A DNA stretch of 64,000 bases from an uncultured Thermodesulfobacteriota bacterium (GCA_964543765.1 CAZIZI010000001.1:170475-234474), one strand, 5' to 3'; positions 2,839-49,028 are shown, counted from the first letter of the stretch. The notes: generated by a model not told the origin, from the letters alone. A program made the numbers and translations.

Positions 2839-2859
2839 CTCAAACAAAGGGGGTTAAAA

Positions 2860-3105
2860 ATGGCTGAATATGATATCTTTATCAATAAGAACTTTGAGGA
2901 CTTAAAGGACGAAGAGGAAATAGTAGGAGTTATAAGGGATCTTAGTCCTGGAAAAAAGAAGTACAAGTGTCTATGCGCCAAATTGATCATCTCGAAGGAT
3001 CCTGATAAATACCCGGATAGACTCTGGGTAAGGCTCGGAAGAGGACAACTCGTTAAGGATCATCCTTGTTCGGTAAAGATAGTGGAGATATTGAAACCTT
3101 ATTGA
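2860..3105 (+). CDS. small (81 aa) hypothetical protein embedded between UbiD paralogs
   Basis: ORF with RBS GGGGG upstream, tightly spaced between ubiD-1 stop and ubiD-2 start (2-nt gap); no recognisable motif. Confidence 0.4.
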   Translation: MAEYDIFINKNFEDLKDEEEIVGVIRDLSPGKKKYKCLCAKLIISKDPDKYPDRLWVRLGRGQLVKDHPCSVKIVEILKPY

Positions 3106-3106
3106 G

Positions 3107-4393: not shown

Positions 4394-4395
4394 AT

Positions 4396-31987: not shown

Positions 31988-34036
31988 TTAAGCTTTCCTC
32001 AGGTTACACCTTAGCGCTTTATAATGAGGATACCCAGTTACTGGATCCTTCGGATCAAGACCTGTAAGTAAATTTACGTTAGCTTCTTCCCATCCATGAG
32101 AGATAAGGACCACATTTGGTGATACTTCCGGTACATATTTGGCCTTAATCTTGAGTTCTCCCTTCGGAGTCTCCACAATTACCATCTCTCCGTCATTTAT
32201 CCCATAAGATTTGGCCGTTTCGGGATTTATCTCCGCTACCGGTTCAGGAAAGCCTTTTCTTAAACTTGGGATGGTGCGGAATTGAGTATGAGTGTAATAA
32301 ATGCTTCTCATTCCGGTACTTAGCCACAATGGATATTTCTTCTCCTCCTCTTGAGTTGAGAAGAGGACCTTCGGAGGATCCACCGGTTCAGGAAGTGGAG
32401 AGTAGCCATGCTCAGCCAAAGTATCCGAATAGATCTCGATCTTTCCGGAAGGGGTTCTTACTTTCCCCTTTATCACCATGTCGTAAGTCTTTTGAGCGTA
32501 GAAAAATCCATGAGGATATTCGTCAAGTTTCGAGTAACTCAACCCCATGGGTTCGAGGAAGAAATCAATGATTTCTTCGTCTGTCTTCCATGGAAAGAGC
32601 TCACCATATCCCAATTTCTTTCCTAATTCACTCCAAAACTTCCAATCAGGCCAAGCCTCTCCTACTGGCTCTATAACCTTTCTCCTCAACATGATATAGG
32701 GTATTCCAGATGTAACCGCATAAACATACCCGAGTCCAGGCCTTTCCAGGAACGAACAAGCGGGAAGCACTATGTGAGCCTTTTTGGCTGTGGCGGTCAT
32801 GAACATGTCCATTACCACTAAAAGGTCAAGCTTCTCAAAAGCCTTTTCCCAGGTTTTCGATTCGGGCATGCTCAAAGCAGGGTTACCAGCTACTACAATA
32901 AATGCCTTAACCGGATAAGGCTTCTCTTCAAGGATAGCCTTAGGTAAATAGAGGGTCTGTCCATAAGGAGAAGACCTGCCCCAAAAGCTATAGAAAATCG
33001 GATGTTCTTCCGCTCCAAGGGGTTTTTCCTCTACAGGAAGTCTAAGGTCACCCAAGCGCGGGAACATAACCGAAGCCCAACTGCCTTTAATATCCACATT
33101 ACCCGTAATGGTTTGAAGGATAGCAAAAGCCCTCATAGTCTGAAGGCCATCAACCCTCTGGTCAAAACATGTCCCGGGTATTATGCAAGCGGGCTTATTT
33201 GTGGCAAAGGTCCTCGCGAGTTCCCTGATCTCGGAAGCGGAAAGCCCCGTAACTTCACTGACTTTCTCAGGTGTATATTTTTGAACATGCTCCTTAAACT
33301 GATCAAATCCCTTGGTATACTTCTCTACGAAGTCCTTATCATAAAGGCCTTCACTTATGATCACATTGGCTATACTCAACGCCAAAAAACAATCACTTCC
33401 GGGACGCACCGGGTAATGTTGACCAAGCTCAGCCAAAGGAATCCTCTTTGGATTTATCACGATGATGTTTTTGCCTCCCCCTTGAGCCCTTAAATAATTG
33501 GCCAAATGGGGTCTGGAGTTGTCAGGGTTTGTGGCCCAAAGGACAATGCACTTGGCGTCTTCGGGTTCTTCAAGCAAAAAGGTTCCAAAGGTAAGCTGAT
33601 GGGCTATGATCCTTGAACGATAACACACGCTTTCAACCGAGAGAAGGTTTGGTGTTCCATAAGCGCCTTTAAAACGCTGAGCAAATGCCGCTATTTCTAA
33701 GTTCTCAACCCCTATAGAACCACAAAAGAGAGCAAGAGAATGCGCACCGTACTTATCCTTTATCTCCGCCAGTTTGGAAGAGATGAAATCAAGCGCCTCG
33801 TCCCAACTTATCCTTTTCCACGAGCCATTTTCCCTCTTCATCGGATAAAGAATCCGGTCAGGAGCATAAACCCATTCGGGTAAAGCCTCTCCCCTCGGAC
33901 ATAAATAACCCCTGCTTAAGGGATGCTCAGGTAATCCCTCAACTTTAACAAGCTTCCCCCCTTCCACATGGGCCACCATACCACAAGACCATACACACCC
34001 TATACACACACTCGGTATCTTCTTTACTTCCGCCAT
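31988..34036 (-). CDS. cytoplasmic molybdopterin (bis-MGD) oxidoreductase, formate-dehydrogenase/DMSO-reductase superfamily
   Basis: N-terminal 4Fe-4S motif CIGCVWSCGMV...CPRG; ~680 aa with the MGD-binding domain architecture; no Tat signal; start ATG 34036 after GGAGGTG RBS. Confidence 0.75.
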   Translation of the reverse strand: MAEVKKIPSVCIGCVWSCGMVAHVEGGKLVKVEGLPEHPLSRGYLCPRGEALPEWVYAPDRILYPMKRENGSWKRISWDEALDFISSKLAEIKDKYGAHSLALFCGSIGVENLEIAAFAQRFKGAYGTPNLLSVESVCYRSRIIAHQLTFGTFLLEEPEDAKCIVLWATNPDNSRPHLANYLRAQGGGKNIIVINPKRIPLAELGQHYPVRPGSDCFLALSIANVIISEGLYDKDFVEKYTKGFDQFKEHVQKYTPEKVSEVTGLSASEIRELARTFATNKPACIIPGTCFDQRVDGLQTMRAFAILQTITGNVDIKGSWASVMFPRLGDLRLPVEEKPLGAEEHPIFYSFWGRSSPYGQTLYLPKAILEEKPYPVKAFIVVAGNPALSMPESKTWEKAFEKLDLLVVMDMFMTATAKKAHIVLPACSFLERPGLGYVYAVTSGIPYIMLRRKVIEPVGEAWPDWKFWSELGKKLGYGELFPWKTDEEIIDFFLEPMGLSYSKLDEYPHGFFYAQKTYDMVIKGKVRTPSGKIEIYSDTLAEHGYSPLPEPVDPPKVLFSTQEEEKKYPLWLSTGMRSIYYTHTQFRTIPSLRKGFPEPVAEINPETAKSYGINDGEMVIVETPKGELKIKAKYVPEVSPNVVLISHGWEEANVNLLTGLDPKDPVTGYPHYKALRCNLRKA

Positions 34037-34158
34037 TAATTCACCTCCTTCAAAATTGCTTCTACAAAATAACATACTATTTCAAGTTTTGCAAGATATA
34101 CCGCTGTTCTCCATAAGATAACTTTTTACGACTGCTTTTTGGGTTATAATGTTTACTT

Positions 34159-35019
34159 ATGAGGAGGGTAGAGGTTATAGGGCTTTTGAGTCTGGGGATT
34201 GGTTTGGTTTTGGCAGTTTTGGCCTTTTTGGAGAAATTGAGGGTAGAGGAAGTGGGTTTTGATGTTTGTAGAAGTGAATCTTGTGAGGTTGTTCAGTATT
34301 CCGGGTTTTCGGACCTTTTTGGTTTTCCCATAACGCTATTTGCGATCTTAGCCTTAGGTGGGGTTATCCTTCTTTGGTTTTTGCGGAGAAAAGAAAAGGC
34401 TCTTTTTATTCTGGCCTTTTTGGTTGGGTGTGAAGCTTATTTGACCTTTATTGAGTTTTATTATTTAGAAGGGAAGTGCCCTCTGTGTATAGCTTTTTTA
34501 AGCAGTTTAGTGATAGGGTTTGTTTTTTCGGTTCTTCAAAGGTTTAGACCATCCCTTTTTTGGTTTATGGCCTTAGGGTTTTTGGGATTGCATTTTCTCT
34601 TCTTCTTTCCGAGATTTGATCTCGCTTATACCCCCTATTTTGACCCCAAGGGAAAGGTTATTGAAGTTTTTCTTTCGCCAAGAGAGTCTCGGATCCTCAA
34701 AGAACTTCAAGGCTTTTTAAGCCAGAGAGGTTTTCAATTGTGTCCGAGGTTTGTCCCTCAAGATCCTTCGTCAAGAAGGGAGGCCCTTTTAGAGATGGCC
34801 AAAATGCTGTTTTCTGAACCGAGTGAAGAAGCTTTGAGGGTCTCAGAAAGGACGTTAAGGAGGAATGAAGAGGAGCTTAAAAATTTTAACGGTTCCCTTC
34901 CCCTGTTGGTAGTGAAGGAAAAGGGAGAAGTGAAAAAGGTGATAAGTGGTCCCAATTGGAGAGAGGAACTTGAGGAATACTTCTCTTTGCCCCCTTTGTT
35001 TTTCTTCAGTTCGCCTTAA
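34159..35019 (+). CDS. VKOR (vitamin K epoxide reductase) family membrane protein with C-terminal soluble extension
   Basis: Loop Cys pair CRSESC and membrane-embedded CxxC (GKCPLCIAF) within 4-5 TM helices as in VKOR homologues. Confidence 0.6.
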   Translation: MRRVEVIGLLSLGIGLVLAVLAFLEKLRVEEVGFDVCRSESCEVVQYSGFSDLFGFPITLFAILALGGVILLWFLRRKEKALFILAFLVGCEAYLTFIEFYYLEGKCPLCIAFLSSLVIGFVFSVLQRFRPSLFWFMALGFLGLHFLFFFPRFDLAYTPYFDPKGKVIEVFLSPRESRILKELQGFLSQRGFQLCPRFVPQDPSSRREALLEMAKMLFSEPSEEALRVSERTLRRNEEELKNFNGSLPLLVVKEKGEVKKVISGPNWREELEEYFSLPPLFFFSSP

Positions 35020-37345
35020 GGGATAGCAAAGCCCTTTTGAGTATCACCCTTGTTATTTCGATCTTATAAGCGTTTTTGTTAAGAGGAAGGGTTTCTTTTA
35101 CGGCCATTTTGGCTGCTTCTTCTATTACTAGGTCTTCTAGCTTTTTGTCCTCAAGCCAACTTTCAACTTCCCTTACCCTTAGAGGTACCGGAGCTACCCC
35201 TCCAAGAGCGATGCTAATTTTTTTGACCACTTTTTCGTTTATTTCTGCGACAATTCCTACACTTACGATCGGAAAATCGATAGAATTTCTGAGCCTGAAC
35301 TTCATGAATACTTGAGGGAGATTTGCCATTTCCTTGGGTATTAAAATCTCCGTTAAGATCTCATCGGAAGCCAAATTGCCTCGGACGGAAGTAAAAAATT
35401 CCTCTACTGGAATTACCCTTGTCCCATTGGAAGTGATTATTTTCAATTTTGCCCCTAAGGCCATTAGCGCCACCGCCATATCTGAAGGATTTACCGCCAC
35501 ACAGCCGCAGTTGAAACATCGGTCTGCTTCCTTTTGAATTTCTTCGAACTCAAAGGGCTTTTTTTCTTTGAAACTAGTGAGCCTTTCGATCTTTTTGAAA
35601 GCCTTAATATTAACTTTGTGAAGGGTCTTTTTGGAAGAGGAAGGGCTTTCTTGGGCAAATTCTCCCAGAAGGAACCGATTTATTGAAACTACTGCCTTTT
35701 TCGCAGAAGCTATTGATTCAACTACCGTTGAGGGACCACTTACGAAATCTCCTCCTGCGAATAGGTTTTTCCCCAAAAAGTAAGAGGAATCAATCTTTAA
35801 ATTCCCCTTTTCATCAATGAAGTCCGAGGGCAAAAAGGAAAGATCCGCTCTTTCCCCCACTGCCTTTATCACCGCATCGTACTCTTCCTCGAATTCCGAT
35901 CCGTAAATGGGAAGGGGTGTAGGTCTACCTGATTCATCCTTAGGCCCAAGGCGCATTCTAACGGAGCGAAGGATCAATTTTTCTCCTTTTTTCTCAAGAC
36001 CTATAGGCTGAGTCAAAAATTCAAATTCTACGCCTTCCTCTTTGGCTAATTCCCTTTCTTCCTTCAAAGCCGGCATTTCGTTCTCCGTTCGACGGTAGAG
36101 GATTTTGGGTTTTGCCTTAAGTCTTAAAAGACTTCTTGCTACATCTATAGCCACGTTCCCACCGCCTATTACCGCTACCTTCTTCCACTTAAACTCTTTT
36201 TGATCCAAATTAATGCTTCTCAAAAAATTCAAACCGCTTAATGCCAACTCTTCACCTGGAATGCCCATTTCCCTTTCCTTCCAAGCCCCTATGGCCAAAA
36301 GCACAGCATCATATTGAGCACATAGATCCTCTAAAGTCATGTCCTTGCCCAAATGGACGTTGAATTTAAACCCGATTCCCAAAGCCTTCTTAAAGGCTTC
36401 AACCACTTTGTTTACGATCCTCTTATTGAGCCTAAATGGAGGTATCCCATATCTTAAAAGTCCACCTGCTTCGCTTTCCCTTTCAAAAATTACTACATCG
36501 TGTCCGCTTTTTCTCAAGTAATAAGCGGCGGTAAGTCCCGCCGGCCCGGATCCAACTATTGCCACTTTTTTCCCCGTTTTCTTATCGGGTAAAGAGAGAA
36601 GCTTGGGCAGGTTCTCAAGAATATAATCTCCCAAAAACCTTTCCACTTCCCTTATCGCCACAGGTTCATCGAATTCTTTTCTGGAGCATCTATCCTCACA
36701 AAAACGAGGGCAAATGCGGCCGGTTATAGAAGAAAGGGGATTAATCTCAAGAAGCATCCTAGCTGCTTCGTCGTTTTTCCCTTCTCTTAAGTTTTCCAAA
36801 ATGGAAGATATGTCAGTGTGAACTGGACAGGCATCCCAACAAGAGGTAGGACGATTCGTATGTTTATAGCATCCAAAAATCGAATGGTAATGGTTTTCTC
36901 CAGTTAGAGCGTAACAAGTATCCCCACCCTTTAGATAACAAGTCAAACGACCCCCTATCTGATGGGGATACCAAAAATACCAACATCGTACCTCCTGACA
37001 CAGATTACCCCCGATTGTGCCCATATTCCTTATTTGAGGCGTTCCTACTGAAGAGGCCGCTTCTTTAAGCAGAGGATATTTTTCAAGCTTCCCAGATCTT
37101 ACGATTTCCTCCAATTTCGTTAAGGCCCCTATCTTGATCGCCTCTTCATCTTCTTCGATTAAGGATAATCCCGGTATCTCCTTAAGGTTTATCAAAGCCT
37201 TTGGGTATTCCGGATAAATGTCCTTTTTTAAGGCAGGGATTAAAACTGTGCCGCCTGCTATAAGTTTCGCCTTTCCATTATACTTTTTTAACAAACTAAT
37301 TGCTTCTTCCAATGTATGAGGGGTGAAATGCTCAAATGGCTTCAT
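35006..37345 (-). CDS. xanthine-dehydrogenase-family medium (FAD) subunit with an inserted GltD-like NAD(P)H-dependent FeS flavoprotein module
   Basis: N-terminal CoxM/XdhB FAD-binding domain (KLIAGGTVLIPAL); then GltD/NfnB-like segment (ITGRICPRFCEDRCSR; KKVAIVGSGPAGLTAAYYL; second Rossmann VAVIGGGNVAIDVAR); then CO-dehydrogenase-flavoprotein C-terminal domain; 779 aa versus ~290 aa for a plain CoxM. Confidence 0.7.
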   Translation of the reverse strand: MKPFEHFTPHTLEEAISLLKKYNGKAKLIAGGTVLIPALKKDIYPEYPKALINLKEIPGLSLIEEDEEAIKIGALTKLEEIVRSGKLEKYPLLKEAASSVGTPQIRNMGTIGGNLCQEVRCWYFWYPHQIGGRLTCYLKGGDTCYALTGENHYHSIFGCYKHTNRPTSCWDACPVHTDISSILENLREGKNDEAARMLLEINPLSSITGRICPRFCEDRCSRKEFDEPVAIREVERFLGDYILENLPKLLSLPDKKTGKKVAIVGSGPAGLTAAYYLRKSGHDVVIFERESEAGGLLRYGIPPFRLNKRIVNKVVEAFKKALGIGFKFNVHLGKDMTLEDLCAQYDAVLLAIGAWKEREMGIPGEELALSGLNFLRSINLDQKEFKWKKVAVIGGGNVAIDVARSLLRLKAKPKILYRRTENEMPALKEERELAKEEGVEFEFLTQPIGLEKKGEKLILRSVRMRLGPKDESGRPTPLPIYGSEFEEEYDAVIKAVGERADLSFLPSDFIDEKGNLKIDSSYFLGKNLFAGGDFVSGPSTVVESIASAKKAVVSINRFLLGEFAQESPSSSKKTLHKVNIKAFKKIERLTSFKEKKPFEFEEIQKEADRCFNCGCVAVNPSDMAVALMALGAKLKIITSNGTRVIPVEEFFTSVRGNLASDEILTEILIPKEMANLPQVFMKFRLRNSIDFPIVSVGIVAEINEKVVKKISIALGGVAPVPLRVREVESWLEDKKLEDLVIEEAAKMAVKETLPLNKNAYKIEITRVILKRALLSLKAN

Positions 37346-37349
37346 CCTT

Positions 37350-39635
37350 CTAAGCCTCCTTCCGTTTTCCTAAAGCCTCAAGAATTACCCACGGAGAAGC
37401 GGGATAGGCATTGATCCATTTGCCTATAGCATTTGATATCGCCATAAGAACCGCTGGTGGACCAGGAGAGGTGGCTATCTCGCCCACTCCAACGGCTCCA
37501 AAGCGATGGCTAGAGAAGGGCGTCTCCAAGATGACGTTTTTAATCTCGGGTAAGTCCAAAAAGGAACGCCATTTATAATCAATGAGATTGGTCGTTAAAA
37601 TTCGCCCTATCTTGGGATCAAGAACCGTTTCCTCGAATATGGCTGTATCTATTCCGGCGGATCCCAAACAACCGTTGAGTTGGTTTTCCAAACACAAGGG
37701 GTCTATTATCTGTCCCGCATCGGTGGCATTGACGACCCTTATAAGGTCGACCTTCCCCGTTTCGGTATCCACCTCCACTTCTACGAAACTTATCATGAAG
37801 TTGCAAAGACTATAATCGGGTTCATAATGCCCGTATCCCCATATGGTGTAAGTTGGGCCCATGGCCCTTCTCCAGGTGATTTGCCTTTTGGGGTCGTCTT
37901 TTACGTAAATTATCCCATCCGAGGTCTCAAGCCTTTCAGGAAGTACACCTAATTTTTTGGAAGCCCGTTCGAATAACTTCCTCTTTGCGTCTTCAGCGGC
38001 CTCTATAACCGCACTTCCTATGGCATAAGTACCTCGGGATCCCACCAGTCCGAATTCATAAGGGTTTGTATCGGAATCAGGTGGAGATAAGAACACGTTT
38101 TCCAAGGGTATCTGAAGGACCTCAGCTACGAATTTACAAAGGTTACTCCTCTGTCCCCCTCCTTGTTCGGGAACTGCCACATAAAGGGTGACCCTATGAT
38201 CGGGGTCTATACGGACAAAGGCTTCGGCATCATCCTCCCCAATATCAGCATTGCTGTGAACCCCGACCCCTACGCCTCTCCTTTTCGGTCCATTTACCAC
38301 GGTTGGTTTAAGCCAGCCCTTCCATTTCTCCTTCCACCCAAAGACTTCGGCTCCTTTGTCGATTGTCTTGGTGAAATCCACCACCCTGGAGATCCACCAA
38401 CGTCCGTCTCTCCAATAATAACCTTGGCCATTCTTGATGACGTTTTTCTTGAAGAACTCAACGGGATCAATGTCAAGTTTCGCCATAGCCATATATAAAA
38501 GGGGCAAAAGCACCGACTTGAGCTCCTGTCCTCCAAACCCTCTTATCCAGCTGGAATTATCCCTATTAGTGCAAATCACCTTGGGTCTCAAATCCCAATT
38601 CTCGCATCTTATGACAAGCTGTACTTCTCCTAAACCTACAGCCACTTGTCCCTGGGTTACTGCTGAATAATACCCGGTATTCACCAGCCAATTACCCGAT
38701 ATGGCCGTGACAGTCCCATCCTTTTTCATACCCACTTTTCCTTTGAGGCGCGTTCCCAAACGGATGGTAAAGCTTGTAAGGTGTTCTTCTTTCGTGTAAC
38801 ACAATTTAACGGGTTGCCCAGCGGCTTTAGCCAACACAATGGCATAAATTGCGATAGGGAGAATAGTCCCTTTTGATCCGTAACTTCCACCGCATTGGCA
38901 GGCATGAACTATCACGTTGTATTTTCTCTGCATTATGTAATAAAGGCTTATTTTGTCCATATAAAACCCTTGAGAAGAAAGCCATACGTGAACCGTCTCT
39001 GGGTCTTCCCAATAGGCTATGGCGCCTGGGGGTTCAGGAGGTAAGGGGTTAGCGATGTTTTCATAATAAAATGTCCCCTCCACCACCACATCCGCTTCTG
39101 AAAAGCCCTTTTCCACATCGCCAAGTCGGAGTTCCTTTAATCCTTCTGGAGCCTCAGGGCTTCCAAACCAGGGGTTCCCTAAGGGTAAGATGTTATTGGG
39201 AAATTCGTCGTAAAGCTGAGGAGCTCCCTCCTTTATGGCCTCTTCTGCGTCAAAAACGGCTGGAAGTATCTCATACTCCACTTCGATTAAGTCCAAAGCC
39301 TCTTGGGCGATTTCTTCCGTTTCAGCGGCTACAAGACTCACCGCATCACCCACAAAGCGTACCTTCTGGTCAAGGACGCGAAGGTGAGGCGGTAAGCCCA
39401 TCTTCCAATCTGGAACGTCCTTATAAGTTAAGACTGCTTTAACACCGGGTAAGCTTTTGGCCTTTTCTACCTTTATCTCCTTTATAATCGCATGGGGATA
39501 AGGGCTTCTTAAAACCTTTCCTATGAGCATATTCGGTAACTTCACATCGTTAATGTAAATGGCCTTCCCCGTGACAATAGATAGGGCGTCCTTCCTCGGG
39601 GTTGGTTGACCTATAAACCTATATTTTTTGGCCAT
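37350..39635 (-). CDS. xanthine-dehydrogenase/aldehyde-oxidase-family molybdopterin-binding large subunit
   Basis: 761 aa, a/b-hammerhead plus MoCo-binding domain architecture typical of CoxL/XdhA/HcrA; sits between the 2Fe-2S and FAD subunits. Confidence 0.8.
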   Translation of the reverse strand: MAKKYRFIGQPTPRKDALSIVTGKAIYINDVKLPNMLIGKVLRSPYPHAIIKEIKVEKAKSLPGVKAVLTYKDVPDWKMGLPPHLRVLDQKVRFVGDAVSLVAAETEEIAQEALDLIEVEYEILPAVFDAEEAIKEGAPQLYDEFPNNILPLGNPWFGSPEAPEGLKELRLGDVEKGFSEADVVVEGTFYYENIANPLPPEPPGAIAYWEDPETVHVWLSSQGFYMDKISLYYIMQRKYNVIVHACQCGGSYGSKGTILPIAIYAIVLAKAAGQPVKLCYTKEEHLTSFTIRLGTRLKGKVGMKKDGTVTAISGNWLVNTGYYSAVTQGQVAVGLGEVQLVIRCENWDLRPKVICTNRDNSSWIRGFGGQELKSVLLPLLYMAMAKLDIDPVEFFKKNVIKNGQGYYWRDGRWWISRVVDFTKTIDKGAEVFGWKEKWKGWLKPTVVNGPKRRGVGVGVHSNADIGEDDAEAFVRIDPDHRVTLYVAVPEQGGGQRSNLCKFVAEVLQIPLENVFLSPPDSDTNPYEFGLVGSRGTYAIGSAVIEAAEDAKRKLFERASKKLGVLPERLETSDGIIYVKDDPKRQITWRRAMGPTYTIWGYGHYEPDYSLCNFMISFVEVEVDTETGKVDLIRVVNATDAGQIIDPLCLENQLNGCLGSAGIDTAIFEETVLDPKIGRILTTNLIDYKWRSFLDLPEIKNVILETPFSSHRFGAVGVGEIATSPGPPAVLMAISNAIGKWINAYPASPWVILEALGKRKEA

Positions 39636-39636
39636 T

Positions 39637-40131
39637 TTAAGTTACCCTCCTTTTTATTACGTCACTTACAGCGTGGAGGACATGATAATGGCTTATACAA
39701 CGACAGAAATGTCCGGAAAGGGCTTCCTTTATCTCTTCCTCCGTTGGTGCTTCCTTTCTATCCAGAAGAGCCTTAAGGCTCATGATTATCCCTGGGGTGC
39801 AAAAACCGCATTGAAAAGCCGTATGGTTTATAAAGCTTTCCTGGAGAGGGTGAAGTTCACCTTTTTCGGGATTACCCAGCCCTTCGATGGTCGTTATGGT
39901 TTTTCCATCGCATTCAATCGTGAGGGTTAAACACGATAAAATCGGTTCTCCATCTATCAATACGGTACAAGCACCACAAGCCCCATGATCGCATCCGACC
40001 TTTGTACCTGTGAGGTTTAGGGTTTCTCTTAACGTGTAAGCCAATGTGTGATGGGGAAATACGTCCTTGTTGAGGAGAAGTTCATAGGACTTTCCATTCA
40101 CATTCAAATTGATGACCTTTCGTTCCTTCAT
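39637..40131 (-). CDS. [2Fe-2S]-binding small subunit of the xanthine-dehydrogenase-family enzyme
   Basis: GCDHGACGACTVLIDG...SC (plant-type ferredoxin cluster) and QCGFCTPG (second cluster) motifs; 164 aa. Confidence 0.9.
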   Translation of the reverse strand: MKERKVINLNVNGKSYELLLNKDVFPHHTLAYTLRETLNLTGTKVGCDHGACGACTVLIDGEPILSCLTLTIECDGKTITTIEGLGNPEKGELHPLQESFINHTAFQCGFCTPGIIMSLKALLDRKEAPTEEEIKEALSGHFCRCISHYHVLHAVSDVIKRRVT

Positions 40132-40224: not shown

Positions 40225-42853
40225 ATGGGGTTGAACGAGGCTGATACAAGGGCTATTCTCGTTGAACACAAGCTCAAAGCTGCTGGTTGGACAGATCAAC
40301 AAGTTAGAAGGGAGTTTTTCTATCACCGTGATCATCAGTATACTCCAGGGCGCATAATATTAGTAGGTGATAGAGTCAAACGAGGAAAACCCCGAAAGGT
40401 GGATTATCTTCTACACCTGACTGATGGTTTTGAGATAGCTGTAATAGAAGCGGAACCCGAGGATAGTCCGGCAGAAGCCGGCTTAGAGCAAGCAAAGACT
40501 TATGCCAAAGATTTAGGATTAGCCTTTGCCTATGCTACAAATGGACACAAGATCTTGGAATATGACTTTTTCACTCATACGACAAGAGAACTTGCGAACT
40601 TTCCTCGTCCCGAGAAGCTTTGGTATCGGTGGAAAATAAACACAGGGTTGAGCTCCTTAGAGTTTACCAAGGAGGAACGTTCAGCCTACCTTTCTAAGTT
40701 AGGAGCGGAACGATACCAAAATCCTCTTCTTTATAGCTATTGTTCGGAAAGCCTTTGTGGGAAAAGACCGTTCTATTTTCAGGAAGTGGCGATTCCTGAG
40801 ATTATAAAGCGTATCATGCGCGGACAACGCCGAATTCTTTTAACCATGGCTAAAGGTACTGGAAAGACATTTGTGGCTTTCCAAGTTGTGTGGAAGCTTA
40901 TAAAATCCGGATGGCTTCAAAGGGGGCATCCTAATAAGCCCACACGTGTTTTATTTTTGGCCGATCGGATTGCCCTTCGTGATCAAGCCTATAACACTTT
41001 TGCACCCTTTGCAGACGGAGTAAACGAACCTCGCTTCAAAATTGAAGGACACCCTCCGAGTTTCACGCGTGACCTTTATTTTGCAATTTATCAGACATTA
41101 TGGAGTCCTAATGAAGAAGGAAAGCGCCTTTTTGAGCTTTACCCACCGGACTTTTTTGACCTGGTGATCATCGATGAATGTCACCGTTCAGGTTGGGGGA
41201 CTTGGCGGGAGATACTCGACCACTTCAAGGATGCCATTCACTTGGGAATGACCGCCACCCCAAAGCAGGATGAAAATATCGATACATACGAATACTTCTG
41301 TCAGGAAGAGCCTGAGGTATTTATTGATCCTGAGCATCCCGAAAAAGGAAAGCGCCTTACTGCTGCTTATGAGTACATCTTGGGGCGAGGCATCGAGGAT
41401 GGATTCCTTGCTACGTATAAGGTGCATCGTGTTCGAACCACGGTGGATAAAGAAGGATTGCGTCTTGAGGATGCCATCGAACAATGAGCTGAGGTTTTCA
41501 TCCCTGAGGATGTAGAACCAAGGGGATATTACACCACTCCTCAATTTGAGCGAGAGATTACCCTTCCAGATCGTACAAAAGCCATGGTCAATCACTTAGC
41601 TAAGCTTTTGCGCAAGTTCGGGTTTTGGGAAAAGACCATGGTTTTCTGGGTGGAAATAGAGCATGCTCGACTCGTGGCTAAATTACTGCAGGATGAATTT
41701 GGTCCGGAAACAGGTTTTGATAACTACGCCGTCCTCATCGTTTCTGAAGAGGGTGCGGAACGCCAGGCGATGGCTTGAAGATTTTGTAAATTCAGAGAAA
41801 GGCGCCATTAGTAGCTACCACGGCGGAGCTTCTCACTACCGGTGTAGATGCTCCGCCTTGTGGAAACATCGTGTTCATGAAGACCTTTTCTTCGCCACTT
41901 CTTTTTAAGCAGATCATAGGCCGGGGAAGTTGCATTGACCCGGCTACAAATAAATACTGGTTTCGCATCATAGATTTTACCAGGGTAACAAAACTTTTCG
42001 ATGAGTGGGATCGTTCCGGGCAAAGAATTATCTAGCGGCCTCAAGGCCCCTTTACTGCTTCTATTTCTGGTCGCGTGTTCCATGCGCAAACGGGTGATCT
42101 CATTGTGGGAGCTCAGGTAAGCGTTCGCACAGGACCCAACACCCAGCAAGGTTCCATTCGTACAGACCAAAATGGCTCTTTATTTTTGAGGAGCTACCAG
42201 CCGAAACCGTTACCCTGATTGTCAGTGTTCCGGGTTTTGTGCGACGTGAATTCAAGGTGGGAACCCTTGCAGATCAAACTGTGGAGATCAATGGTTTCCT
42301 AAAACGTGAGAGCAAAAGAAAATCTAAGATAGAAGTTGAAGGGTTAACCGTAGAAATCGCGGATGAAGCGATTTTTATAATGGAGTCAACTGGGCAACAA
42401 CTCACTTTGGAGCAGTACCGAGATTATACTCCTCGAAAGATCATTCAAGTTGCTCCCACAAGAAAAACTTTGCGCCAGATCTGGATAAACCCAGAAAAGC
42501 GCCAGCATTTCTTAGAAGAGCTTCGTCGGTCTGACATTCATCCTGAGGTTTTTAGGGAAATTCTTAACCAAAATGAGGCGGATACGTATGATCTTTTGCC
42601 CCATCTTGCCTTCGGGGCCCCCATTCGTACAAGAAGCGAACGAACCCTAGCGTTCCGAAATCGCGAGCAAGCATTCTTACAGCGCCACAGCGAGAACGCA
42701 CCTCAAGTCGTCCTCGCGCCTTTGGAAAAATACCGCGTGGGGTTGAGGAATTGCAACCGAAGGTGTTCGGCCTTTCCCCATTCCGGGAGTGGGATGAAGC
42801 TTTTTGCATTCAAAATTGGTTTGGTGGTGCGGAAGGGCTCGCCCGAACCTTGA
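40225..42853 (+). pseudogene. hsdR: type I restriction enzyme R subunit (HsdR), disrupted into >=4 fragments
   Basis: N-terminal MGLNEADTRAILVEHKLKAAGW (HsdR N-domain), DEAD-box IIDECHRS, then stop at 41487; continuation in shifted frames (41584-41908) and EcoEI-R-C-like C-terminal domain ORF 42239-42853. Confidence 0.75.
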
Positions 42854-42926
42854 AGAAATCCAGAAGCGCATTTACCCTGAAGAGGAGGTGGTAGTAAGAT
42901 GAACCGGCCACAGACGAAGGGAAACA

Positions 42927-43907
42927 TTGGCCAATGAAATCTGGAGGGCTTGTAACATCCTTCGCCAAGACAACAACTGCACTGGTATTATGGAATACGT
43001 AAAGCATTTATCCTGGCTTCTCTTTCTTCGTTTTCTGGACGCCCAGGAAGAGGAGTGGGAAACTCAGGCCAAGCTTGAACGCAAAGAGTATCAGCCGATC
43101 ATCGAGCCGCCCTACCGTTGGCGGGATTGGGCTACCAGAGACTGGTCTGCGGAGGAGCTCCTTTCTTTTGTTCATGGCCGCCTTATTCCTTACCTCCAAA
43201 ATCTTGGAGATGATCCCGTTCGCGCGATCATCCGCGGAATTTTCGCTGAAAGAAACGTTATCGTCTGTGCCTCCGGCTACAACCTAAAGGACGTTCTTCA
43301 AATCATCAACGGCATCGATTTCTACTCCCAGGATGACATATTCACCGTATTCCAGGTTTACGAGGAGTTACTTCGTCGCTTAGGCAGTGAAAACTGCCTG
43401 GCCGGAGAATTCTATACTCCAAGACCAGTTGTTCGTTTTATTGTGGAAGTTGTGGACCCCAAAATTGGGGAAACCATCTATGACCCAGCCTGCGGAACCT
43501 GCGGCTTTTTGGCCCAAGCTTATTTACACATGCGCAAATACGAGCAAACCATTGAGGATCACAGGATTCTTCAGGAGCAAACATTTTATGGCCAGGAAAA
43601 GAAACTCATTCCAGTCCTTCTTGGTCTCATGAATATGGTCCTTCACAGCGTGACTATACCCCGCATCGCCCGCCGAAATACCTTGGGAGAAAACATCCGC
43701 CATGTTACCGAACATTATGATGTGATTATGACAAATCCCACTTTCGGCGGGACAGAAGGTATACATATTCAGCATCATTTCCCCATCCGGTCTCAGGCTA
43801 CGGAGCTTCTTTTTCTACAGCACATCATGGAAAAGCTAAAACCCAGAGACGGTGCCCGCTGCGGTATGGTCGTGCCCGAAGGAACCCTTCCATTGTGGAG
43901 GAGCTGA
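42927..43907 (+). pseudogene. hsdM: type I R-M DNA methyltransferase subunit (HsdM), truncated (~326 aa of ~500)
   Basis: HsdM N-domain ANEIWRACNILRQD...HLSWLLFLRFLD, AdoMet motif DPACGTCGFL, catalytic NPTFGG (NPPF-type); ends prematurely after MVVPEGTL; upstream start region also out of frame. Confidence 0.65.
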
Positions 43908-46387: not shown

Positions 46388-47542
46388 TTATCCATCTTTT
46401 AGTGATTCCCAAATGACCTTCGTGATATAGGTGACCTTTTTGCCCATCTGGCCAATTTTATTCGTGTAGTTCAGGTTAAAAGTGCAGAAGGGACAAGGGC
46501 TTATTAACTCTTCGGTTTCCGTTTGCTTTAGTAAGGTACTAGCAATATCAAAAGAAAGGTTTTTGAAAGCTGATCTTATCCCTCCGCCCGATCCACAACA
46601 TAATGTTTCTTCCCGTGAACGGGAAAGTTCATAAACATCGATCCCACACAACTTTAACAGCTCTCACGGTTCCTTGGTGTATCTTTCGCCTCGGCCTAAA
46701 CGGCAACTGTCATGATAAGTGACTTTTCTTTCCACTTTTCTTAAAAGGGAAGGGTCCTTCTTTAATTCCTTGTAAATGACCTGAAGCACATGAAAGACTT
46801 CAAAATCGACTGACCCCAAAACTTCCCGATAAAAATACTTGAAACACTTCAACAACCGTTACAAGCCACAATAAGCCTTGTTATACCGAGTTTCTTAAAA
46901 CGATCTGCGTTTTCTCGGAAAAGCCTTTCAGCTATCTGGACTTCGCCGGCTTCATATATATAAGTGCCACAGCATCCTTCATCCTCAAGGATCATGAAAT
47001 CTATCCCCAGTTTTTTAAGCACAAGATAGGAATATACAGCCGCATCTTTAACCAGATAAGAGGGCAAGCACCCCACAAAAAACAAAGTCCGAGACCTTCG
47101 AGGCTCAAAGGGCTCAGGAACCCATCGCAGTCTTTCCGAGGGATCTCCGTTTACGCTGTTTCCCTTTTCTAATATGCCTTGAATAATCTTTTTATGAACG
47201 GGAAGAGGTCCTTTTCCATTTTTCACAATCTTGTTCCTAATGAGAGCAACGATTTTGCTTACTTCAATGTCCTGAGGACAAACCACTTTCACAAGCCGCA
47301 CATTTGGGACAGTTATAAAAAGTGGTGACCATTTCTTCCGTGATTTCACCGCTTTTCATGAGGTTTTTAACGCTTTTTAAACGCCCTTTGGGGGAGAAAA
47401 AGGGATTTTTTGTGGCTATGTAAGTTGGGCAGACCTCCAAACAAGCATCGCAATCATTACATCTTTCAATTCGACTTAGAATCCAATTGTCCTGCATTGT
47501 ATTGTTTAAAGTTATATAACCTAATTCTTTTAGAAGTTGCAA
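46388..47542 (-). pseudogene. HdrD/GlpC/LutA-like FeS oxidoreductase (2x[4Fe-4S] + two CCG domains), split into 4 ORFs
   Basis: Fragment 1: CNDCDACLEVCP + CPKCAAC; fragment 2: first CCG domain (GCCG...ACNGC); fragment 3: YHDSCRLGR; in-frame TGA; fragment 4: second CCG domain (CCGSGGG...CPFC). The TGA sits where homologues have PRELLK (Arg CGA to TGA). Confidence 0.65.
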
Positions 47543-47570: not shown

Positions 47571-49028
47571 ATGATGGGAGGAATAAAAGCGAAGTTTTGG
47601 GAAGGAGTTCTTGGAACAGGACTTTTGTTTTTGGATATCGCCCCTTTTCGAGGGTTTTTGCTCCGAAAAATAGAAGGTTACTTATGGCAGAGGATCGTCG
47701 AAGGGGAAAAGGATACTATAAGACCTGCTCAGGAGCTGAAGTTTTATTTTGTAAGGAACCTTTTACGGACAACCGATCACCATCTGAGAAAGGGTTGGCT
47801 TCATAAGGATATTTTCCACCGGATGGTGAAGGTCTTTGTCAGAGGTGTTCTCACCGAGGACATCGAGTATAGGGAGAGGAAAAAGCAAAAAGGAGAGGAT
47901 TATCCTACTCCTTCCTTTATCGTAATAAGCCCCACTCAGGCCTGTAACCTTCAATGTCCGGGTTGTTATGCCTTAAGCGGACCCTCCAGTAAAGTCTCTC
48001 TTCCTTGGAGCGTGGCAAGTAGGATCATCGATGAGAAAGCTAGGCTCTGGCATTCCCATTTTACGGTGGTTTCAGGTGGAGAGCCCTTCATGTGGAAAAG
48101 TGAGGGGAAGGACTTGCTTGATCTTGCCGAAAGGCACAATGACAACTTCTTCATGGTATACACCAATGGGACTCTGATAGACGAAAGGGTTGCCGAAAGG
48201 CTTAGGAAACTCGGGAATTTCACTCCCGTCATCTCCGTTGAGGGGTTTGAAGAAAATACCGATCGCCGCCGAGGCAAGGGCACTTTTAAGAAGATCCTTC
48301 GAACCTTTAAAATCCTTCGCGAATACGGGGTTCCCTTTGGTATTTCGGTTGTGGCGGAAAAGCACAATTGGGACGAGGTCACAAGTTGGGATTTTCTGCG
48401 ATTCTTCTTCGATGAGCAGGGTGCATTTTATGGTTGGCTTTTCCAATACATGCCCATTGGACGGGGTTACACGCTTGAAAACATGGTTGGTCCTGAGGAA
48501 AGGCTTGAGATGTTCCGAAGGAACGTGGAGGCTATTAAGGCCGGATATAACTATATCGATTTTTGGAATGAGGGTCCGATGACCGACGGTTGCTTGGCAG
48601 CGGGTAGGTCAGGGGGTTATCTCTATATAGATTGGAAGGGCGATGTTATGCCCTGTGTGTTTGTACCTTATAAGGTTGACAATATCCTTGAGATTTACGA
48701 AAGGGGTGGAACCATCGATGAAGTGCTGAGTTCGGATTTCTTCAGAAGGATAAGGAATTGGCAAGATCAATATGCCTTAAAGAGACCCCCCAAGGAAAAG
48801 GGCAACCTCATTATGCCTTGCCCGATAAGGGATCATCATGAGTTCATGTGGAGTATTTTGAAGGAGACAGGGGCAAAACCCACGGATGATGCAGCCGAGG
48901 AGGCTCTTTTCGATGAGGCTTACCATCAAGGTTTAATAAAATATGACCAAGCCCTGTCCCTTCTTTTGGACCCAATTTGGGAAGAGGAGTTTTTGAAGGA
49001 CCGTTTTCCCTTAAGAAAACTCCCGTGA
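47571..49028 (+). CDS. radical SAM enzyme with ~120-aa N-terminal extension (family unresolved)
   Basis: CNLQCPGCYA (Cx3Cx2C) at aa ~125-134 with glycine-rich SAM motif region VVSGGEPF; 485 aa; C-terminal region lacks a full 7-Cys SPASM motif. Confidence 0.7.
   Translation: MMGGIKAKFWEGVLGTGLLFLDIAPFRGFLLRKIEGYLWQRIVEGEKDTIRPAQELKFYFVRNLLRTTDHHLRKGWLHKDIFHRMVKVFVRGVLTEDIEYRERKKQKGEDYPTPSFIVISPTQACNLQCPGCYALSGPSSKVSLPWSVASRIIDEKARLWHSHFTVVSGGEPFMWKSEGKDLLDLAERHNDNFFMVYTNGTLIDERVAERLRKLGNFTPVISVEGFEENTDRRRGKGTFKKILRTFKILREYGVPFGISVVAEKHNWDEVTSWDFLRFFFDEQGAFYGWLFQYMPIGRGYTLENMVGPEERLEMFRRNVEAIKAGYNYIDFWNEGPMTDGCLAAGRSGGYLYIDWKGDVMPCVFVPYKVDNILEIYERGGTIDEVLSSDFFRRIRNWQDQYALKRPPKEKGNLIMPCPIRDHHEFMWSILKETGAKPTDDAAEEALFDEAYHQGLIKYDQALSLLLDPIWEEEFLKDRFPLRKLP

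What the first reader, a model, noticed from the sequence alone, without database searches (positions are those of the whole stretch)
35006..40131. XDH-family molybdoenzyme whose FAD subunit has a GltD-like NAD(P)H oxidoreductase inserted
The gene order is small [2Fe-2S] subunit, large MoCo subunit, then a 779-aa medium subunit. A normal CoxM/XdhB-type FAD subunit is ~290 aa. Here the N-terminal FAD-binding domain and the C-terminal CO-dehydrogenase-flavoprotein domain are separated by ~430 aa resembling glutamate-synthase small subunit / NfnB / SudA, with the CPxxCEDRC FeS motif and two GxGxxG dinucleotide folds. That gives a built-in pyridine-nucleotide:FeS:FAD electron wire into the Mo centre, which looks suited to reductive chemistry, as in 4-hydroxybenzoyl-CoA reductase (which has an FeS insertion in this same subunit), or to NAD(P)+-linked hydroxylation. 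With UbiD-type (de)carboxylases and YqeB/YqeC selenium-maturation genes in the same window, this may be a reductive aromatic or heterocycle-transforming enzyme, possibly selenium-dependent.
Basis: partly seen in the sequence, partly recalled or inferred. Interest (0 to 1): 0.7.

Follow-up and report, generated by a model that had tools for sequence, protein, structure and literature searches.

The report
Molybdoenzyme with built-in NADPH electron module
This is a real three-gene xanthine-dehydrogenase-family molybdenum enzyme whose flavin subunit carries a complete NADPH-flavin-iron-sulfur module; the design is widespread in anaerobes and was first noted in 2025 in a gut-bacterial urolithin dehydroxylase, so this is a new member rather than a new kind.

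Summary
Three tightly packed minus-strand genes encode S (164 aa, two [2Fe-2S]), L (761 aa, Mo cofactor) and M (779 aa).

M is not an assembly fusion:
- The same ORF is on independently assembled contigs.
- At least 117 protein clusters share its architecture.
- 59 of the 80 retrieved genome loci carry a full-length long M.

The inserted module (residues ~162-614) lies inside the FAD_binding_5 domain. It is nested between the third and fourth Cys of an HcrB/PaoB-type [4Fe-4S] loop. It is also a circular permutation of GltD: GltD's N-terminal "ADRCxxCG" segment follows the module. All 12 FeS Cys, the Glu ligand, both dinucleotide motifs and the NADPH-type YRR motif are conserved.

The implied wire is NADPH > FAD > three [4Fe-4S] > FAD > two [2Fe-2S] > Mo.

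The architecture is already published for UxdC. Its operon uxdFOC has the same gene order and confers reductive 10-dehydroxylation of urolithins (PMC12658268).

L is closest to 4-hydroxybenzoyl-CoA reductase. Its nearest relatives often sit next to aryl-acid CoA ligases, so a reductive aryl dehydroxylase is the best guess. The substrate, the direction and any selenium dependence remain untested.

Sister strains have deleted the NADPH domain but kept the FeS part.

Verdict: new member of a known but barely characterised kind.

The parts
39637..40131 (-). S subunit, 164 aa, two [2Fe-2S] clusters (Cys 47/52/55/67 and 108/111/143/145). No Tat or signal peptide is apparent by inspection of the N-terminus; no prediction tool was run.
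   Evidence: Pfam Fer2 and Fer2_2. NCBIfam glyceraldehyde-DH gamma, XdhC, PaoA and HcrC models all match below their cutoffs. Cys positions.
37350..39635 (-). L subunit, 761 aa, molybdopterin-binding catalytic subunit. It has the hammerhead, MoCoBD_1 and MoCoBD_2 domains and the conserved Glu (E719) in GVGE at 716-719.
   Evidence: Pfam. The best solved relative is HcrA 1rm6_A, E 3.7e-65. It falls below every NCBIfam equivalog cutoff: XdhA 373 of 780 bits, HcrA 344 of 994 bits. Motif positions.
35006..37345 (-). M subunit, 779 aa: an HcrB/PaoB-type FAD subunit with a nested, circularly permuted GltD/NfnB-like module.
36863..37345 (-). M residues 1-161: the N-terminal part of FAD_binding_5 plus the first three Cys (C121, C136, C144) of the HcrB/PaoB-type [4Fe-4S] loop.
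   Evidence: Alignments to 5y6q_B, 1rm6_B and 5g5g_B. Alignment to short M homologues. The Cys are invariant.
35504..36862 (-). M residues 162-614: the inserted GltD/NfnB-like cassette. It comprises Fer4_20, a FAD domain, an NADPH domain and the trailing permuted segment.
36614..36847 (-). M residues 167-244: Fer4_20 domain holding C169, C173, C212, C216, C220 and E235, the proposed ligands of the distal and proximal [4Fe-4S] clusters.
   Evidence: Pfam. GltD C55/C59 align with C169/C173. StnC K170, which is the NfnB Glu ligand, maps to E235 using the alignment and PMC10482914. The residues are invariant.
35789..36292 (-). M residues 352-519: NAD(P)H-binding Rossmann domain, with GGGNVA at 394-399 and the YRRTENEMPA NADPH-type motif at 417-426. 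This stretch is replaced by about 90 nt in the orthologous genes of sister strains.
35504..35593 (-). M residues 585-614 (KIERLTSFKEKKPFEFEEIQKEADRCFNCG): the counterpart of the N-terminal segment of canonical GltD (E. coli GltD 22-51), here placed after the module. It carries C610 and C613.
   Evidence: Pairwise BLAST E 0.004. Smith-Waterman score 57 against shuffles of 22.9 +/- 4.5, with 0 of 2000 shuffles reaching it. The same trailing RCxxCGC follows the module in 9n5u_A, 9bov_A and 8oh5_C.
35009..35503 (-). M residues 615-779: C615 (the fourth Cys of the HcrB-type cluster), the rest of FAD_binding_5, and CO_deh_flav_C.
   Evidence: 5y6q_B 157-325 aligns with M 614-775. Pfam CO_deh_flav_C at 686-775.

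Best explanation
The three genes encode a cytoplasmic XDH-family molybdoenzyme. S carries two [2Fe-2S] clusters and L carries the Mo-pterin active site.

M is an HcrB/PaoB-type FAD subunit. Its [4Fe-4S]-binding loop has been opened between its third and fourth cysteines, and a circularly permuted GltD/NfnB-like cassette sits in the gap. The cassette holds an NADPH site, a second FAD and two more [4Fe-4S] clusters.

Proposed electron path, inferred from ligand conservation and homology and not measured:
1. NADPH.
2. Cassette FAD.
3. Proximal [4Fe-4S] (C173, C212, C216, E235).
4. Distal [4Fe-4S] (C169, C220, C610, C613).
5. HcrB-type [4Fe-4S] (C121, C136, C144, C615).
6. XDH-type FAD.
7. Two [2Fe-2S] clusters in S.
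8. Mo in L.

C613-G-C615 would ligate two neighbouring clusters, which ties the cassette's exit directly to the host subunit's cluster.

Most likely direction: reductive. That would make it an NADPH-driven dehydroxylase of a phenolic or aryl-CoA substrate, working like 4-hydroxybenzoyl-CoA reductase or UxdFOC with the external ferredoxin replaced by a built-in NADPH module.

What is shown: the gene structure, domain topology, conservation and folds. What is inferred: cofactor content, direction, donor and substrate.
For: Topology:
- The M construct with the insert removed aligns end to end with the FeS-bearing medium subunit 5y6q_B. The loop Cys fall on C121, C136, C144 and C615.
- Natural short homologues read ...HSIFGGYK-GC(615)VAVN, which defines the insertion point.
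- E. coli GltD 55-470 matches M 169-559, and GltD 22-51 matches M 585-614.

Folds (pLDDT 88.9, pTM 0.84):

Ligands: all 12 Cys, E235, R305 and both glycine motifs are invariant in 60 long homologues that are 38-50% identical and in 117 closer ones.

Nucleotide: the YRRTxxEMPA motif matches NADPH-binding NfnB and StnC.

Operon: the S-L-M order is conserved in nearly all 80 loci, and nothing else is conserved around it.

Direction:
- uxdFOC has the same order and the same extra domains in UxdC. It confers 10-dehydroxylation of urolithins, and its authors propose an FAD-4Fe4S-FAD relay.
- The best solved relative of L is HcrA.
- Among the 16 loci whose L is at least 54% identical to this one, 7 have an adjacent aryl-acid-type AMP ligase, against 4 of 64 others (p = 7e-4). 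One of them also has an IclR/PcaR regulator and an MFS transporter.
- Hosts are anaerobes.
Against: - No biochemical data exist for this protein or for any close relative.
- The UxdC sequence could not be obtained, so its homology rests on the paper's domain description.
- L is only about 30% identical to HcrA and lies below all equivalog cutoffs.
- The window has no CoA ligase, and no substrate clue sits next to the operon.
- Most XDH-family enzymes are hydroxylases, and the catalytic Glu is kept in both oxidative and reductive members. The sequence therefore cannot fix the direction.
- In the orthologous locus of sister strains the NADPH domain is deleted, yet the remnant is under purifying selection (dN/dS 0.05-0.07). 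Two unrelated lineages have done the same. NADPH input is therefore dispensable in some members, and another donor such as ferredoxin may serve the FeS chain.
Confidence: 0.55

Rival explanations
1. Same wire, opposite direction. The enzyme would be a hydroxylase or dehydrogenase acting on an N-heterocycle, an aldehyde or an aryl-CoA. It would pass electrons from Mo through the FeS/FAD chain to NADP+, with the cassette serving as an NADP+-reducing exit.
For: - Most characterised XDH-family members are oxidative.
- PaoB, an oxidative enzyme's subunit, has the same [4Fe-4S] loop and matches M as well as HcrB does.
- The catalytic Glu is present.
- L scores about as well on XdhA models as on the HcrA model.
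- GltD-type modules are reversible electron conduits (established knowledge).
Against: - The only tested enzyme with this architecture is reductive.
- The nearest L relatives have an aryl-CoA-ligase context typical of 4-HBCR pathways.
- Ordinary XDH FAD subunits reduce NAD+ directly, so a 450-aa add-on seems unnecessary for that purpose.
Confidence: 0.25
2. The NfnB-like FAD is an electron-bifurcating or confurcating site. NADPH and a second carrier, ferredoxin, would be coupled so that low-potential electrons reach Mo for a Birch-like dehydroxylation. Alternatively, an exergonic substrate reduction would drive ferredoxin reduction.
For: - The cassette is 43-45% identical to bifurcating NfnB.
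- It keeps the Arg (R305) and the Glu ligand (E235) discussed as features of NfnB's bifurcating site.
- 4-HBCR needs low-potential ferredoxin (established knowledge).
- Variants that lose the NADPH domain keep the FeS chain, which suggests a second entry point.
Against: - The same Arg and Glu are present in non-bifurcating E. coli GltD, and the Arg is also present in StnC, whose FAD does not bifurcate.
- No NfnA-like or HydBC-like partner is encoded in or near the operon.
- The sequence topology implies a single linear chain.
Confidence: 0.08
3. The cassette is a decaying relic in this lineage. It would be structurally retained but not used, and the enzyme would run on ferredoxin like 4-HBCR.
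For: - The closest relatives have deleted the NADPH domain.
- Other lineages have in addition degraded the FAD motifs.
- Short M forms nest inside the long-M clade.
Against: - The window copy keeps every family-invariant residue of the NADPH and FAD sites.
- The long form is by far the commonest state.
Confidence: 0.07
4. The 779-aa ORF is an assembly or annotation fusion of two genes.
For: None found.
Against: - Identical ORF in two independent assemblies.
- Hundreds of homologues with the same continuous architecture across phyla, including complete genomes of cultured strains.
- The host domain is split around the insert, which a head-to-tail gene fusion cannot produce.
Confidence: 0.01

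Closest known systems
[quoted passage not shown]
   Same: - XDH-family three-gene operon in the same order (2Fe-2S subunit, Mo subunit, FAD subunit).
[quoted passage not shown]
- Its authors propose a 4Fe-4S relay between the two flavins.
- E. asparagiformis and E. lavalensis genomes encode full-length M homologues, 39% identical to the window M.
   Different: - The window enzyme comes from an uncultured Desulfobacterota-like bacterium.
- Its L is only about 39-44% identical to the Enterocloster paralogues I could read.
- It has the NADPH-type YRR motif, whereas those paralogues have CLE.
- A urolithin substrate is unlikely.
- The UxdC sequence itself was not available, so direct identity is untested.
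4-hydroxybenzoyl-CoA reductase HcrABC of Thauera aromatica (PDB 1RM6)
   Same: - HcrA is the best solved relative of L.
- HcrB is matched over 306 of 323 residues, including the [4Fe-4S] loop with four Cys.
- The electron flow would be inverted, that is reductive.
- Close L relatives sit next to aryl-acid CoA ligases.
   Different: - All three subunits score far below the HcrABC equivalog cutoffs.
- HcrB has no GltD cassette and takes electrons from external ferredoxin.
GltD-like cassette of StnC / NfnABC NfnA (Bfu-type transhydrogenases; PDB 8OH5, 9N5U, 9BOV)
   Same: - These are the best sequence matches to the insert (E 1.8e-111).
- They carry the same trailing RCxxCGC segment.
- The cassette is likewise inserted into another FeS protein.
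- It passes NADPH electrons through two [4Fe-4S] clusters in a linear path.
   Different: - The host protein is NuoG-like, not an XDH FAD subunit.
- The proximal cluster has a Lys ligand, where the window protein has Glu.
- The partners are HydBC-like subunits.
Classical GltD / NfnB / DPD N-terminal modules
   Same: - FAD and NADPH motifs.
- A Cys7 plus Glu ligand set for two [4Fe-4S] clusters.
   Different: - The window module is circularly permuted. The segment holding the first CxxC lies after the module rather than before it.
- There is no GltB or NfnA partner.
UcdCFO / Ucdh urolithin C dehydroxylase, and XdhD-YgfM urate reductase
   Same: They are reductive XDH-family enzymes of anaerobes or facultative anaerobes that use NAD(P)H-derived electrons.
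   Different: - Their FAD subunits are of ordinary size; the ucd operon is about 3.7 kb.
- E. coli YgfK is a separate DPD-like yanthine reductase, not an electron donor for XdhD.

Membership tests
Xanthine oxidase/dehydrogenase family, three-subunit bacterial type | [quoted passage not shown] | tested here: met
   Fer2 and Fer2_2. Cys 47/52/55/67 and 108/111/143/145.
Xanthine oxidase/dehydrogenase family, three-subunit bacterial type | Large subunit with hammerhead and two MoCo-binding domains, plus the conserved catalytic Glu | tested here: met
   Pfam E 2e-28 to 3e-48. GVGE at 716-719 aligns with the Glu of HcrA and CoxL.
Xanthine oxidase/dehydrogenase family, three-subunit bacterial type | Medium subunit with the FAD_binding_5 and CO_deh_flav_C fold | tested here: met
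   [not shown]
4-hydroxybenzoyl-CoA reductase (HcrABC) | Four-Cys [4Fe-4S] loop in the FAD subunit | tested here: met
   C121, C136, C144 and C615 align with the loop Cys of 5y6q_B and of the short homologues. They are invariant.
4-hydroxybenzoyl-CoA reductase (HcrABC) | Equivalog-level similarity of the three subunits | tested here: not met
   TIGR03194: 344 bits against a cutoff of 994. TIGR03195: 146 against 405. TIGR03193: 158 against 258.
4-hydroxybenzoyl-CoA reductase (HcrABC) | Pathway context (4-hydroxybenzoate-CoA ligase, benzoyl-CoA reductase) | tested here: inconclusive
   No AMP ligase in the 64-kb window. A ligase is adjacent in 7 of the 16 loci with the closest L. PpcA-like UbiD genes lie 32 kb away.
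4-hydroxybenzoyl-CoA reductase (HcrABC) | Ferredoxin-dependent dehydroxylation of 4-hydroxybenzoyl-CoA | not testable with these tools
   Needs an enzyme assay.
UxdFOC-type XDH-family dehydroxylase with extended FAD subunit | Gene order 2Fe-2S subunit, Mo subunit, FAD subunit | tested here: met
   compared with the paper's uxdFOC.
UxdFOC-type XDH-family dehydroxylase with extended FAD subunit | FAD subunit with an added 4Fe-4S domain and FAD/NAD(P) domain, giving two FAD sites | tested here: met
   Pfam and folds, compared with the description in PMC12658268.
UxdFOC-type XDH-family dehydroxylase with extended FAD subunit | Sequence homology to UxdC and UxdO themselves | not tested
   The sequences and accessions are only in a supplement that is not held. 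Enterocloster paralogues in L033, L041 and L045 are 39% (M) and 39-44% (L) identical to the window proteins.
UxdFOC-type XDH-family dehydroxylase with extended FAD subunit | Urolithin 10-dehydroxylase activity | not testable with these tools
   Needs an assay. It is unlikely in this organism.
GltD / NfnB family | FAD and NAD(P)H dinucleotide motifs, plus the Cys7-Glu ligand set for two [4Fe-4S] clusters | tested here: met
   G265/G267/G270, G394/G396/A399, R418/R419, C169/173/212/216/220/610/613 and E235.
GltD / NfnB family | Canonical N-to-C order, and a GltB or NfnA partner | tested here: not met
   The module is circularly permuted. No such partner lies in the operon or the flanks.
Bfu-type StnC / NfnA(ABC) cassette | Permuted GltD cassette with a trailing RCxxCGC, inserted in a host FeS protein | tested here: met
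   alignments. Insertion at StnC residues 102-565.
Bfu-type StnC / NfnA(ABC) cassette | Lys ligand at the proximal cluster, a NuoG-like host, and HydBC-like partners | tested here: not met
   E235 sits at the K170 position. The host is an XDH FAD subunit. No HydBC-like genes are present.
Selenium-dependent molybdenum hydroxylase | YqeB and YqeC maturation genes in the genome | tested here: met
   TIGR03309: 366 bits against a cutoff of 220. TIGR03172: 191 against 73.
Selenium-dependent molybdenum hydroxylase | Maturation genes adjacent to the enzyme genes, and SelD present | tested here: inconclusive
   YqeB and YqeC lie 15 kb from the operon. YqeB is next to a long-M operon only in L065, and MoCF-domain homologues are nearby in 5 loci. 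SelD was not searched for.
Selenium-dependent molybdenum hydroxylase | Labile Se at the Mo centre | not testable with these tools
   Needs metal analysis.

The most novel reading that the evidence does not exclude
The NfnB-like flavin in the M subunit would act as an electron-bifurcating or confurcating centre inside a molybdoenzyme. It would couple NADPH and ferredoxin so that a thermodynamically or kinetically demanding aromatic dehydroxylation at a possibly selenium-modified Mo site is driven, or is used to conserve energy, without ATP. The recurrent NADPH-domain-less variants would be the ferredoxin-only form of the same machine.
Probability: 0.08. Interest if true: 0.8.

Novelty: new member of a known kind. 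Interest (0 to 1): 0.45.

Why it matters
Reductive members of the xanthine oxidase family are only now being recognised: 4-HBCR, Ucd, Uxd and XdhD.

This family of self-contained NAD(P)H-to-Mo enzymes is large and spread across phyla. About 50 clusters at 50% identity span the junction. Hosts include Dehalococcoidia, Actinomycetota, Desulfobacterota, Lachnospiraceae and Bathyarchaeia.

No member has been purified or solved. Its L subunits fall into at least three distant groups, so many substrates are probably involved, in both gut and subsurface aromatic metabolism.

The precise topology worked out here gives concrete targets for mutagenesis and structure work:
- a permuted GltD cassette spliced into the HcrB cluster loop;
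- three [4Fe-4S] clusters in series;
- a C613-G-C615 bridge between two clusters;
- NADPH-type versus NADH-type sub-families;
- natural variants that have lost the NADPH domain.

It also offers a plausible account of how ferredoxin-dependent 4-HBCR-like enzymes and pyridine-nucleotide-dependent ones interconvert.

Tried and rejected
1. E. coli YgfK/YgfM/XdhD as an unfused analogue. Rejected: YgfK is a separate DPD-like yanthine reductase.
2. Ucd as the same architecture. Rejected: the ucdCFO operon is about 3.7 kb and UcdC is of ordinary size.
3. L041 ([Clostridium] asparagiforme) as the uxd operon itself. Not supported: no ucd operon lies within 7 kb upstream, and an ortholog is present in E. 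lavalensis, a species the Uxd paper reports as lacking uxd. It is treated as a paralogue.
4. Getting the UxdC sequence. No supplement is held and there are no accessions in the text.
5. Reading Cys-Cys distances from the AF2 model. Coordinates are not exposed. The afdb50 library is unavailable.
6. Riboswitch or RNA elements. Only one tRNA was found in the window. The promoter and terminator scan was not above the shuffle expectation.
7. Using the catalytic Glu of L to decide direction. It is kept in reductive UcdO and HcrA too.
8. A complementary pattern of NADPH domain intact with the upstream CCG gene broken, and the reverse. It is not consistent: L087 has the short M together with the same restriction-modification DNA upstream of S.
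9. A short-peptide PDB search for the permuted segment. It found only the StnC/NfnABC-type chains. The permutation was instead shown against E. coli GltD.
10. Literature searches for HcrB/GltD fusions and for an ergothioneine desulfurase. Nothing relevant was found. A 2018 survey lists GltD fusions only for the DMSO-reductase family.

Full report
**Observation**

The region holds three tightly packed minus-strand ORFs:
- S, 39637-40131, 164 aa.
- L, 37350-39635, 761 aa.
- M, 35006-37345, 779 aa.

Pfam gives the classic XDH-family set. S has Fer2 and Fer2_2. L has Ald_Xan_dh_C, MoCoBD_1 and MoCoBD_2. M has four matches:
- FAD_binding_5 at residues 3-118, covering only profile positions 2-114 of 170, with a second stretch later.
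- Fer4_20 at 167-244.
- Pyr_redox_2 at 259-547.
- CO_deh_flav_C at 686-775.

NCBIfam shows the same split. The HcrB model covers residues 2-157, a GltD-like model (PRK12771) covers 159-621, and XdhB covers 615-773. One refinement is needed: the insert lies inside the FAD_binding_5 domain, not between the two Pfam domains.

**Not an artefact**

- The identical 779-aa ORF occurs on contigs from two independent assemblies, one from ENA and one from JGI.
- A search of 5.8 billion proteins returned at least 117 clusters of 780-800 aa with the same domain set at 48-62% identity.
- A scan of one genome per species matched several hundred genomes. Of the best 80 loci, 59 carry an intact long M. These include cultured Acetobacterium tundrae, Enterocloster lavalensis (two copies) and [Clostridium] asparagiforme.
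- A query spanning the junction (residues 100-260) found 47 representatives at E <= 1e-30 among 1.84 billion 50%-identity clusters; about 50 of the listed hits match across the junction.
- The S-L-M order is kept almost everywhere. No other neighbour is conserved.

**Anatomy of M**

I removed residues 165-604 and searched the remaining 339 aa against solved structures. It aligns end to end with the FeS-containing aldehyde-oxidase medium subunit 5y6q_B, and also with HcrB and PaoB. The four loop cysteines of 5y6q_B fall on C121, C136, C144 and C615.

Natural short homologues of 325-355 aa read ...YHSIFGGYK-GC(615)VAVN. The module is therefore inserted between K161 and G614/C615, that is between the third and fourth ligand of the HcrB/PaoB-type [4Fe-4S] cluster.

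The insert is closest to the GltD-like cassette of Bfu-type NfnA and StnC, and next to NfnB:
- 9n5u_A, E 1.8e-111.
- 9bov_A, E 6.6e-100.
- 4ylf_B (NfnB), E 8e-88, 43-45% identity.

Those Bfu-type chains, like M, have an "EAxRCxxCGC" segment about 40 residues after the module.

I compared M with E. coli GltD, fetched as L088:
- GltD 55-470 aligns with M 169-559 (E 1e-69).
- GltD 22-51 (KIRKIEFVEIYEPFSEGQAKAQADRCLSCG) aligns with M 585-614 (KIERLTSFKEKKPFEFEEIQKEADRCFNCG).
- For the second match the pairwise E is 0.004. The Smith-Waterman score is 57 against shuffles of 22.9 +/- 4.5, and 0 of 2000 shuffles reach it.

The module is thus a circular permutation of canonical GltD. GltD's C47-x2-C50...C55-x3-C59-P motif is split into C610-x2-C613 after the module and C169-x3-C173-P before it.

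I mapped the StnC structure paper onto the alignment. StnC's unusual Lys170 ligand, which is Glu in NfnB, corresponds to E235. StnC R239 corresponds to R305.

The ligand assignment follows by homology to DPD, GltD and NfnB. This step is inference:
- Proximal cluster: C173, C212, C216, E235.
- Distal cluster: C169, C220, C610, C613.
- Host cluster: C121, C136, C144, C615.

C613-G-C615 then ligates two adjacent clusters.

**Conservation and fold**

In 60 long M proteins from named genomes (38-50% identical), all 12 Cys, E235, R305 and both glycine motifs are invariant. The same holds in the 117 closer homologues, except that C144 is at 90% or more rather than fully invariant.

No solved chain matches the whole protein.

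**Nucleotide preference**

The window protein has ILYRRTENEMPA, the motif of the NADPH-binding NfnB, GltD and StnC. In the wider family only 16 of 60 have YRR. The other 44 have CLE, where a Glu at the end of the second strand is the classic NADH signature. All Enterocloster copies are of the CLE type. The assignment of specificity is inference from Rossmann-fold rules.

**What is known**

The architecture is not new. PMC12658268 (November 2025) describes the Enterocloster uxdFOC operon, which has the same order as S-L-M:
- It is predicted to bind two FAD.
- Its authors propose that it relays electrons through 4Fe-4S clusters.
- Expressed in Clostridium sporogenes, the operon confers 10-dehydroxylation of urolithins.

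No enzyme of this type has been purified. The insertion topology, the permutation and the ligand assignment are not described there.

I could not obtain the UxdC sequence. The Enterocloster loci I retrieved appear to be paralogues. Homology to UxdC therefore rests on the published domain description.

Related reductive XDH-family enzymes have ordinary FAD subunits: Ucd/Ucdh and XdhD-YgfM. E. coli YgfK is a separate DPD-like reductase, not an electron donor for XdhD. A 2018 survey of molybdoenzyme fusions lists GltD only with the DMSO-reductase family.

**Function**

L is below every equivalog cutoff. Its best solved relative is HcrA, at E 3.7e-65.

L subunits paired with long M range from 26% to 63% identity to the window L, so the long M serves several catalytic clades.

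In the clade closest to the window L (at least 54% identity, 16 loci), 7 loci have an adjacent AMP-forming ligase whose best model is an aryl-acid (DHB-AMP) ligase. Only 4 of the 64 other loci do (Fisher p = 7e-4). The Syntrophorhabdaceae locus L005 reads ligase, IclR/PcaR regulator, S, L, M, ligase, MFS transporter. L060 has UbiD genes upstream.

This context, the retained HcrB loop and the Uxd precedent make a reductive aryl or aryl-CoA dehydroxylase the best guess.

The window itself gives no substrate clue. It has no CoA ligase. The flanks are restriction-modification remnants, a convergent VKOR gene and an acetylene-hydratase-like MopB gene. Direction cannot be read from L, because the catalytic Glu is kept in both oxidative and reductive members.

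**A caveat from close relatives**

In the orthologous, syntenic locus of sister strains, M is 628-640 aa. Residues 352-519, the NADPH domain, are replaced by about 30 codons. At 90% identity, the short form's cluster has 19 members against 3 in the window M's cluster. At least seven of the contigs carrying the short form also appear among those listed for the window L's 90% cluster.

The remaining Fer4_20 and FAD parts are under purifying selection between two short-form genes, with dN/dS of 0.05-0.07. Two unrelated clusters, P0286 and P0288, have lost the same domain. They have also degraded the FAD motifs, yet they keep every FeS ligand.

Fully short HcrB-like M subunits nest within the long-M clade in a neighbour-joining tree of the core. 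That tree has no support values and the sampling is biased, so the result is tentative.

NADPH input is therefore dispensable in some members, and the FeS chain probably accepts electrons from another donor. The window copy keeps all invariant residues of both nucleotide sites.

**Selenium**

YqeB and YqeC are genuine: 366 and 191 bits, both above their cutoffs. They lie 15 kb from the operon, next to a MoCF-domain gene. Homologues of that MoCF gene sit near five other long-M operons, and YqeB sits near one. This is suggestive at most. SelD was not looked for.

**Organism**

EF-G is 64-75% identical to proteins from "Deltaproteobacteria bacterium" MAGs. Related contigs of about 1.6 Mb suggest a small genome.

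**Verdict**

It is a new, distant member of a recently recognised and biochemically uncharacterised kind. It is neither a new kind nor an artefact.

Noticed in passing
window 35789-36292 (M residues 352-519); loci L085, L086, L087; proteins P0002, P0003, P0005, P0286, P0288: Sister strains carry the orthologous, syntenic operon with the NADPH-binding domain of M replaced by about 30 codons. The remnant FeS and FAD parts are under purifying selection (dN/dS 0.05-0.07). Two unrelated clusters (627 and 629 aa) have lost the same domain independently. They have also degraded the FAD motifs, but they keep all FeS ligands.
   Followed up: yes
window 46394-47497 (-), compared with L085 1977-3086: A 369-aa Fer4+CCG (HdrD/GlpC-like) gene sits intact 129 nt upstream of S, on the same strand, in a sister strain. 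In the window it is broken into three reading frames. It may once have been an electron-transfer partner of the operon.
   Followed up: partly
window 40225-43907 (+): Remnants of a type I restriction-modification system lie between the broken CCG gene and S: hsdR split into 420-aa and 204-aa ORFs, and a 326-aa hsdM fragment. They are absent from the sister locus L085.
   Followed up: partly
window 31988-34075 (-): A cytoplasmic bis-MGD molybdoenzyme gene has acetylene hydratase as its closest solved relative (2e7z_A, E 3e-93). It falls below all NCBIfam cutoffs. It is syntenic with the XDH operon in the sister strains, and a 33% homologue lies near the long-M operon in L019.
   Followed up: partly
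window 52202-56176 (+) and 47571-49028 (+): A run of overlapping genes: an AmmeMemoRadiSam B/A fusion, a 357-aa MoCF_biosynth-domain protein, YqeB and YqeC. A radical SAM/SPASM gene lies upstream. Homologues of the MoCF-domain protein lie near long-M operons in five other genomes, and YqeB does in one (L065).
   Followed up: partly
window 1384-6378 (+): A cluster of three UbiD-family genes and a UbiX gene. The first scores above the phenylphosphate carboxylase alpha equivalog cutoff (624 bits against 565). They are followed by a CTP-dependent riboflavin kinase/HAD gene and an FMN-dehydrogenase-like gene. They lie 32 kb from the XDH operon, so any pathway link is unproven.
   Followed up: partly
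long-M homologues in L003-L069 (alignment at M residues 412-426): The family splits into a YRR(T/S)xxEMPA type (16 of 60, including the window) and a CLExxxxMPA type (44 of 60, including all Enterocloster copies). This probably reflects NADPH versus NADH specificity.
   Followed up: partly
protein P0303 (1730 aa): In a high-GC organism the L subunit and the long M subunit are fused into one polypeptide, with L at the N-terminus. This subunit order differs from that of eukaryotic XDH.
   Followed up: no
locus L074 (Bathyarchaeia) 3120-6958: Among the 80 retrieved species-representative genome loci, the L closest to the window L (77% identity; S 74%) is archaeal and is paired with a short, insert-free M of 326 aa. 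This suggests inter-domain transfer and a clean loss or gain of the whole cassette.
   Followed up: partly
window 10538-12134 (+): Two adjacent ORFs of 308 and 232 aa both carry a GCV_H (lipoyl/H-protein) domain. Both are much longer than an ordinary GcvH. A multi-Fer4 protein follows them.
   Followed up: no
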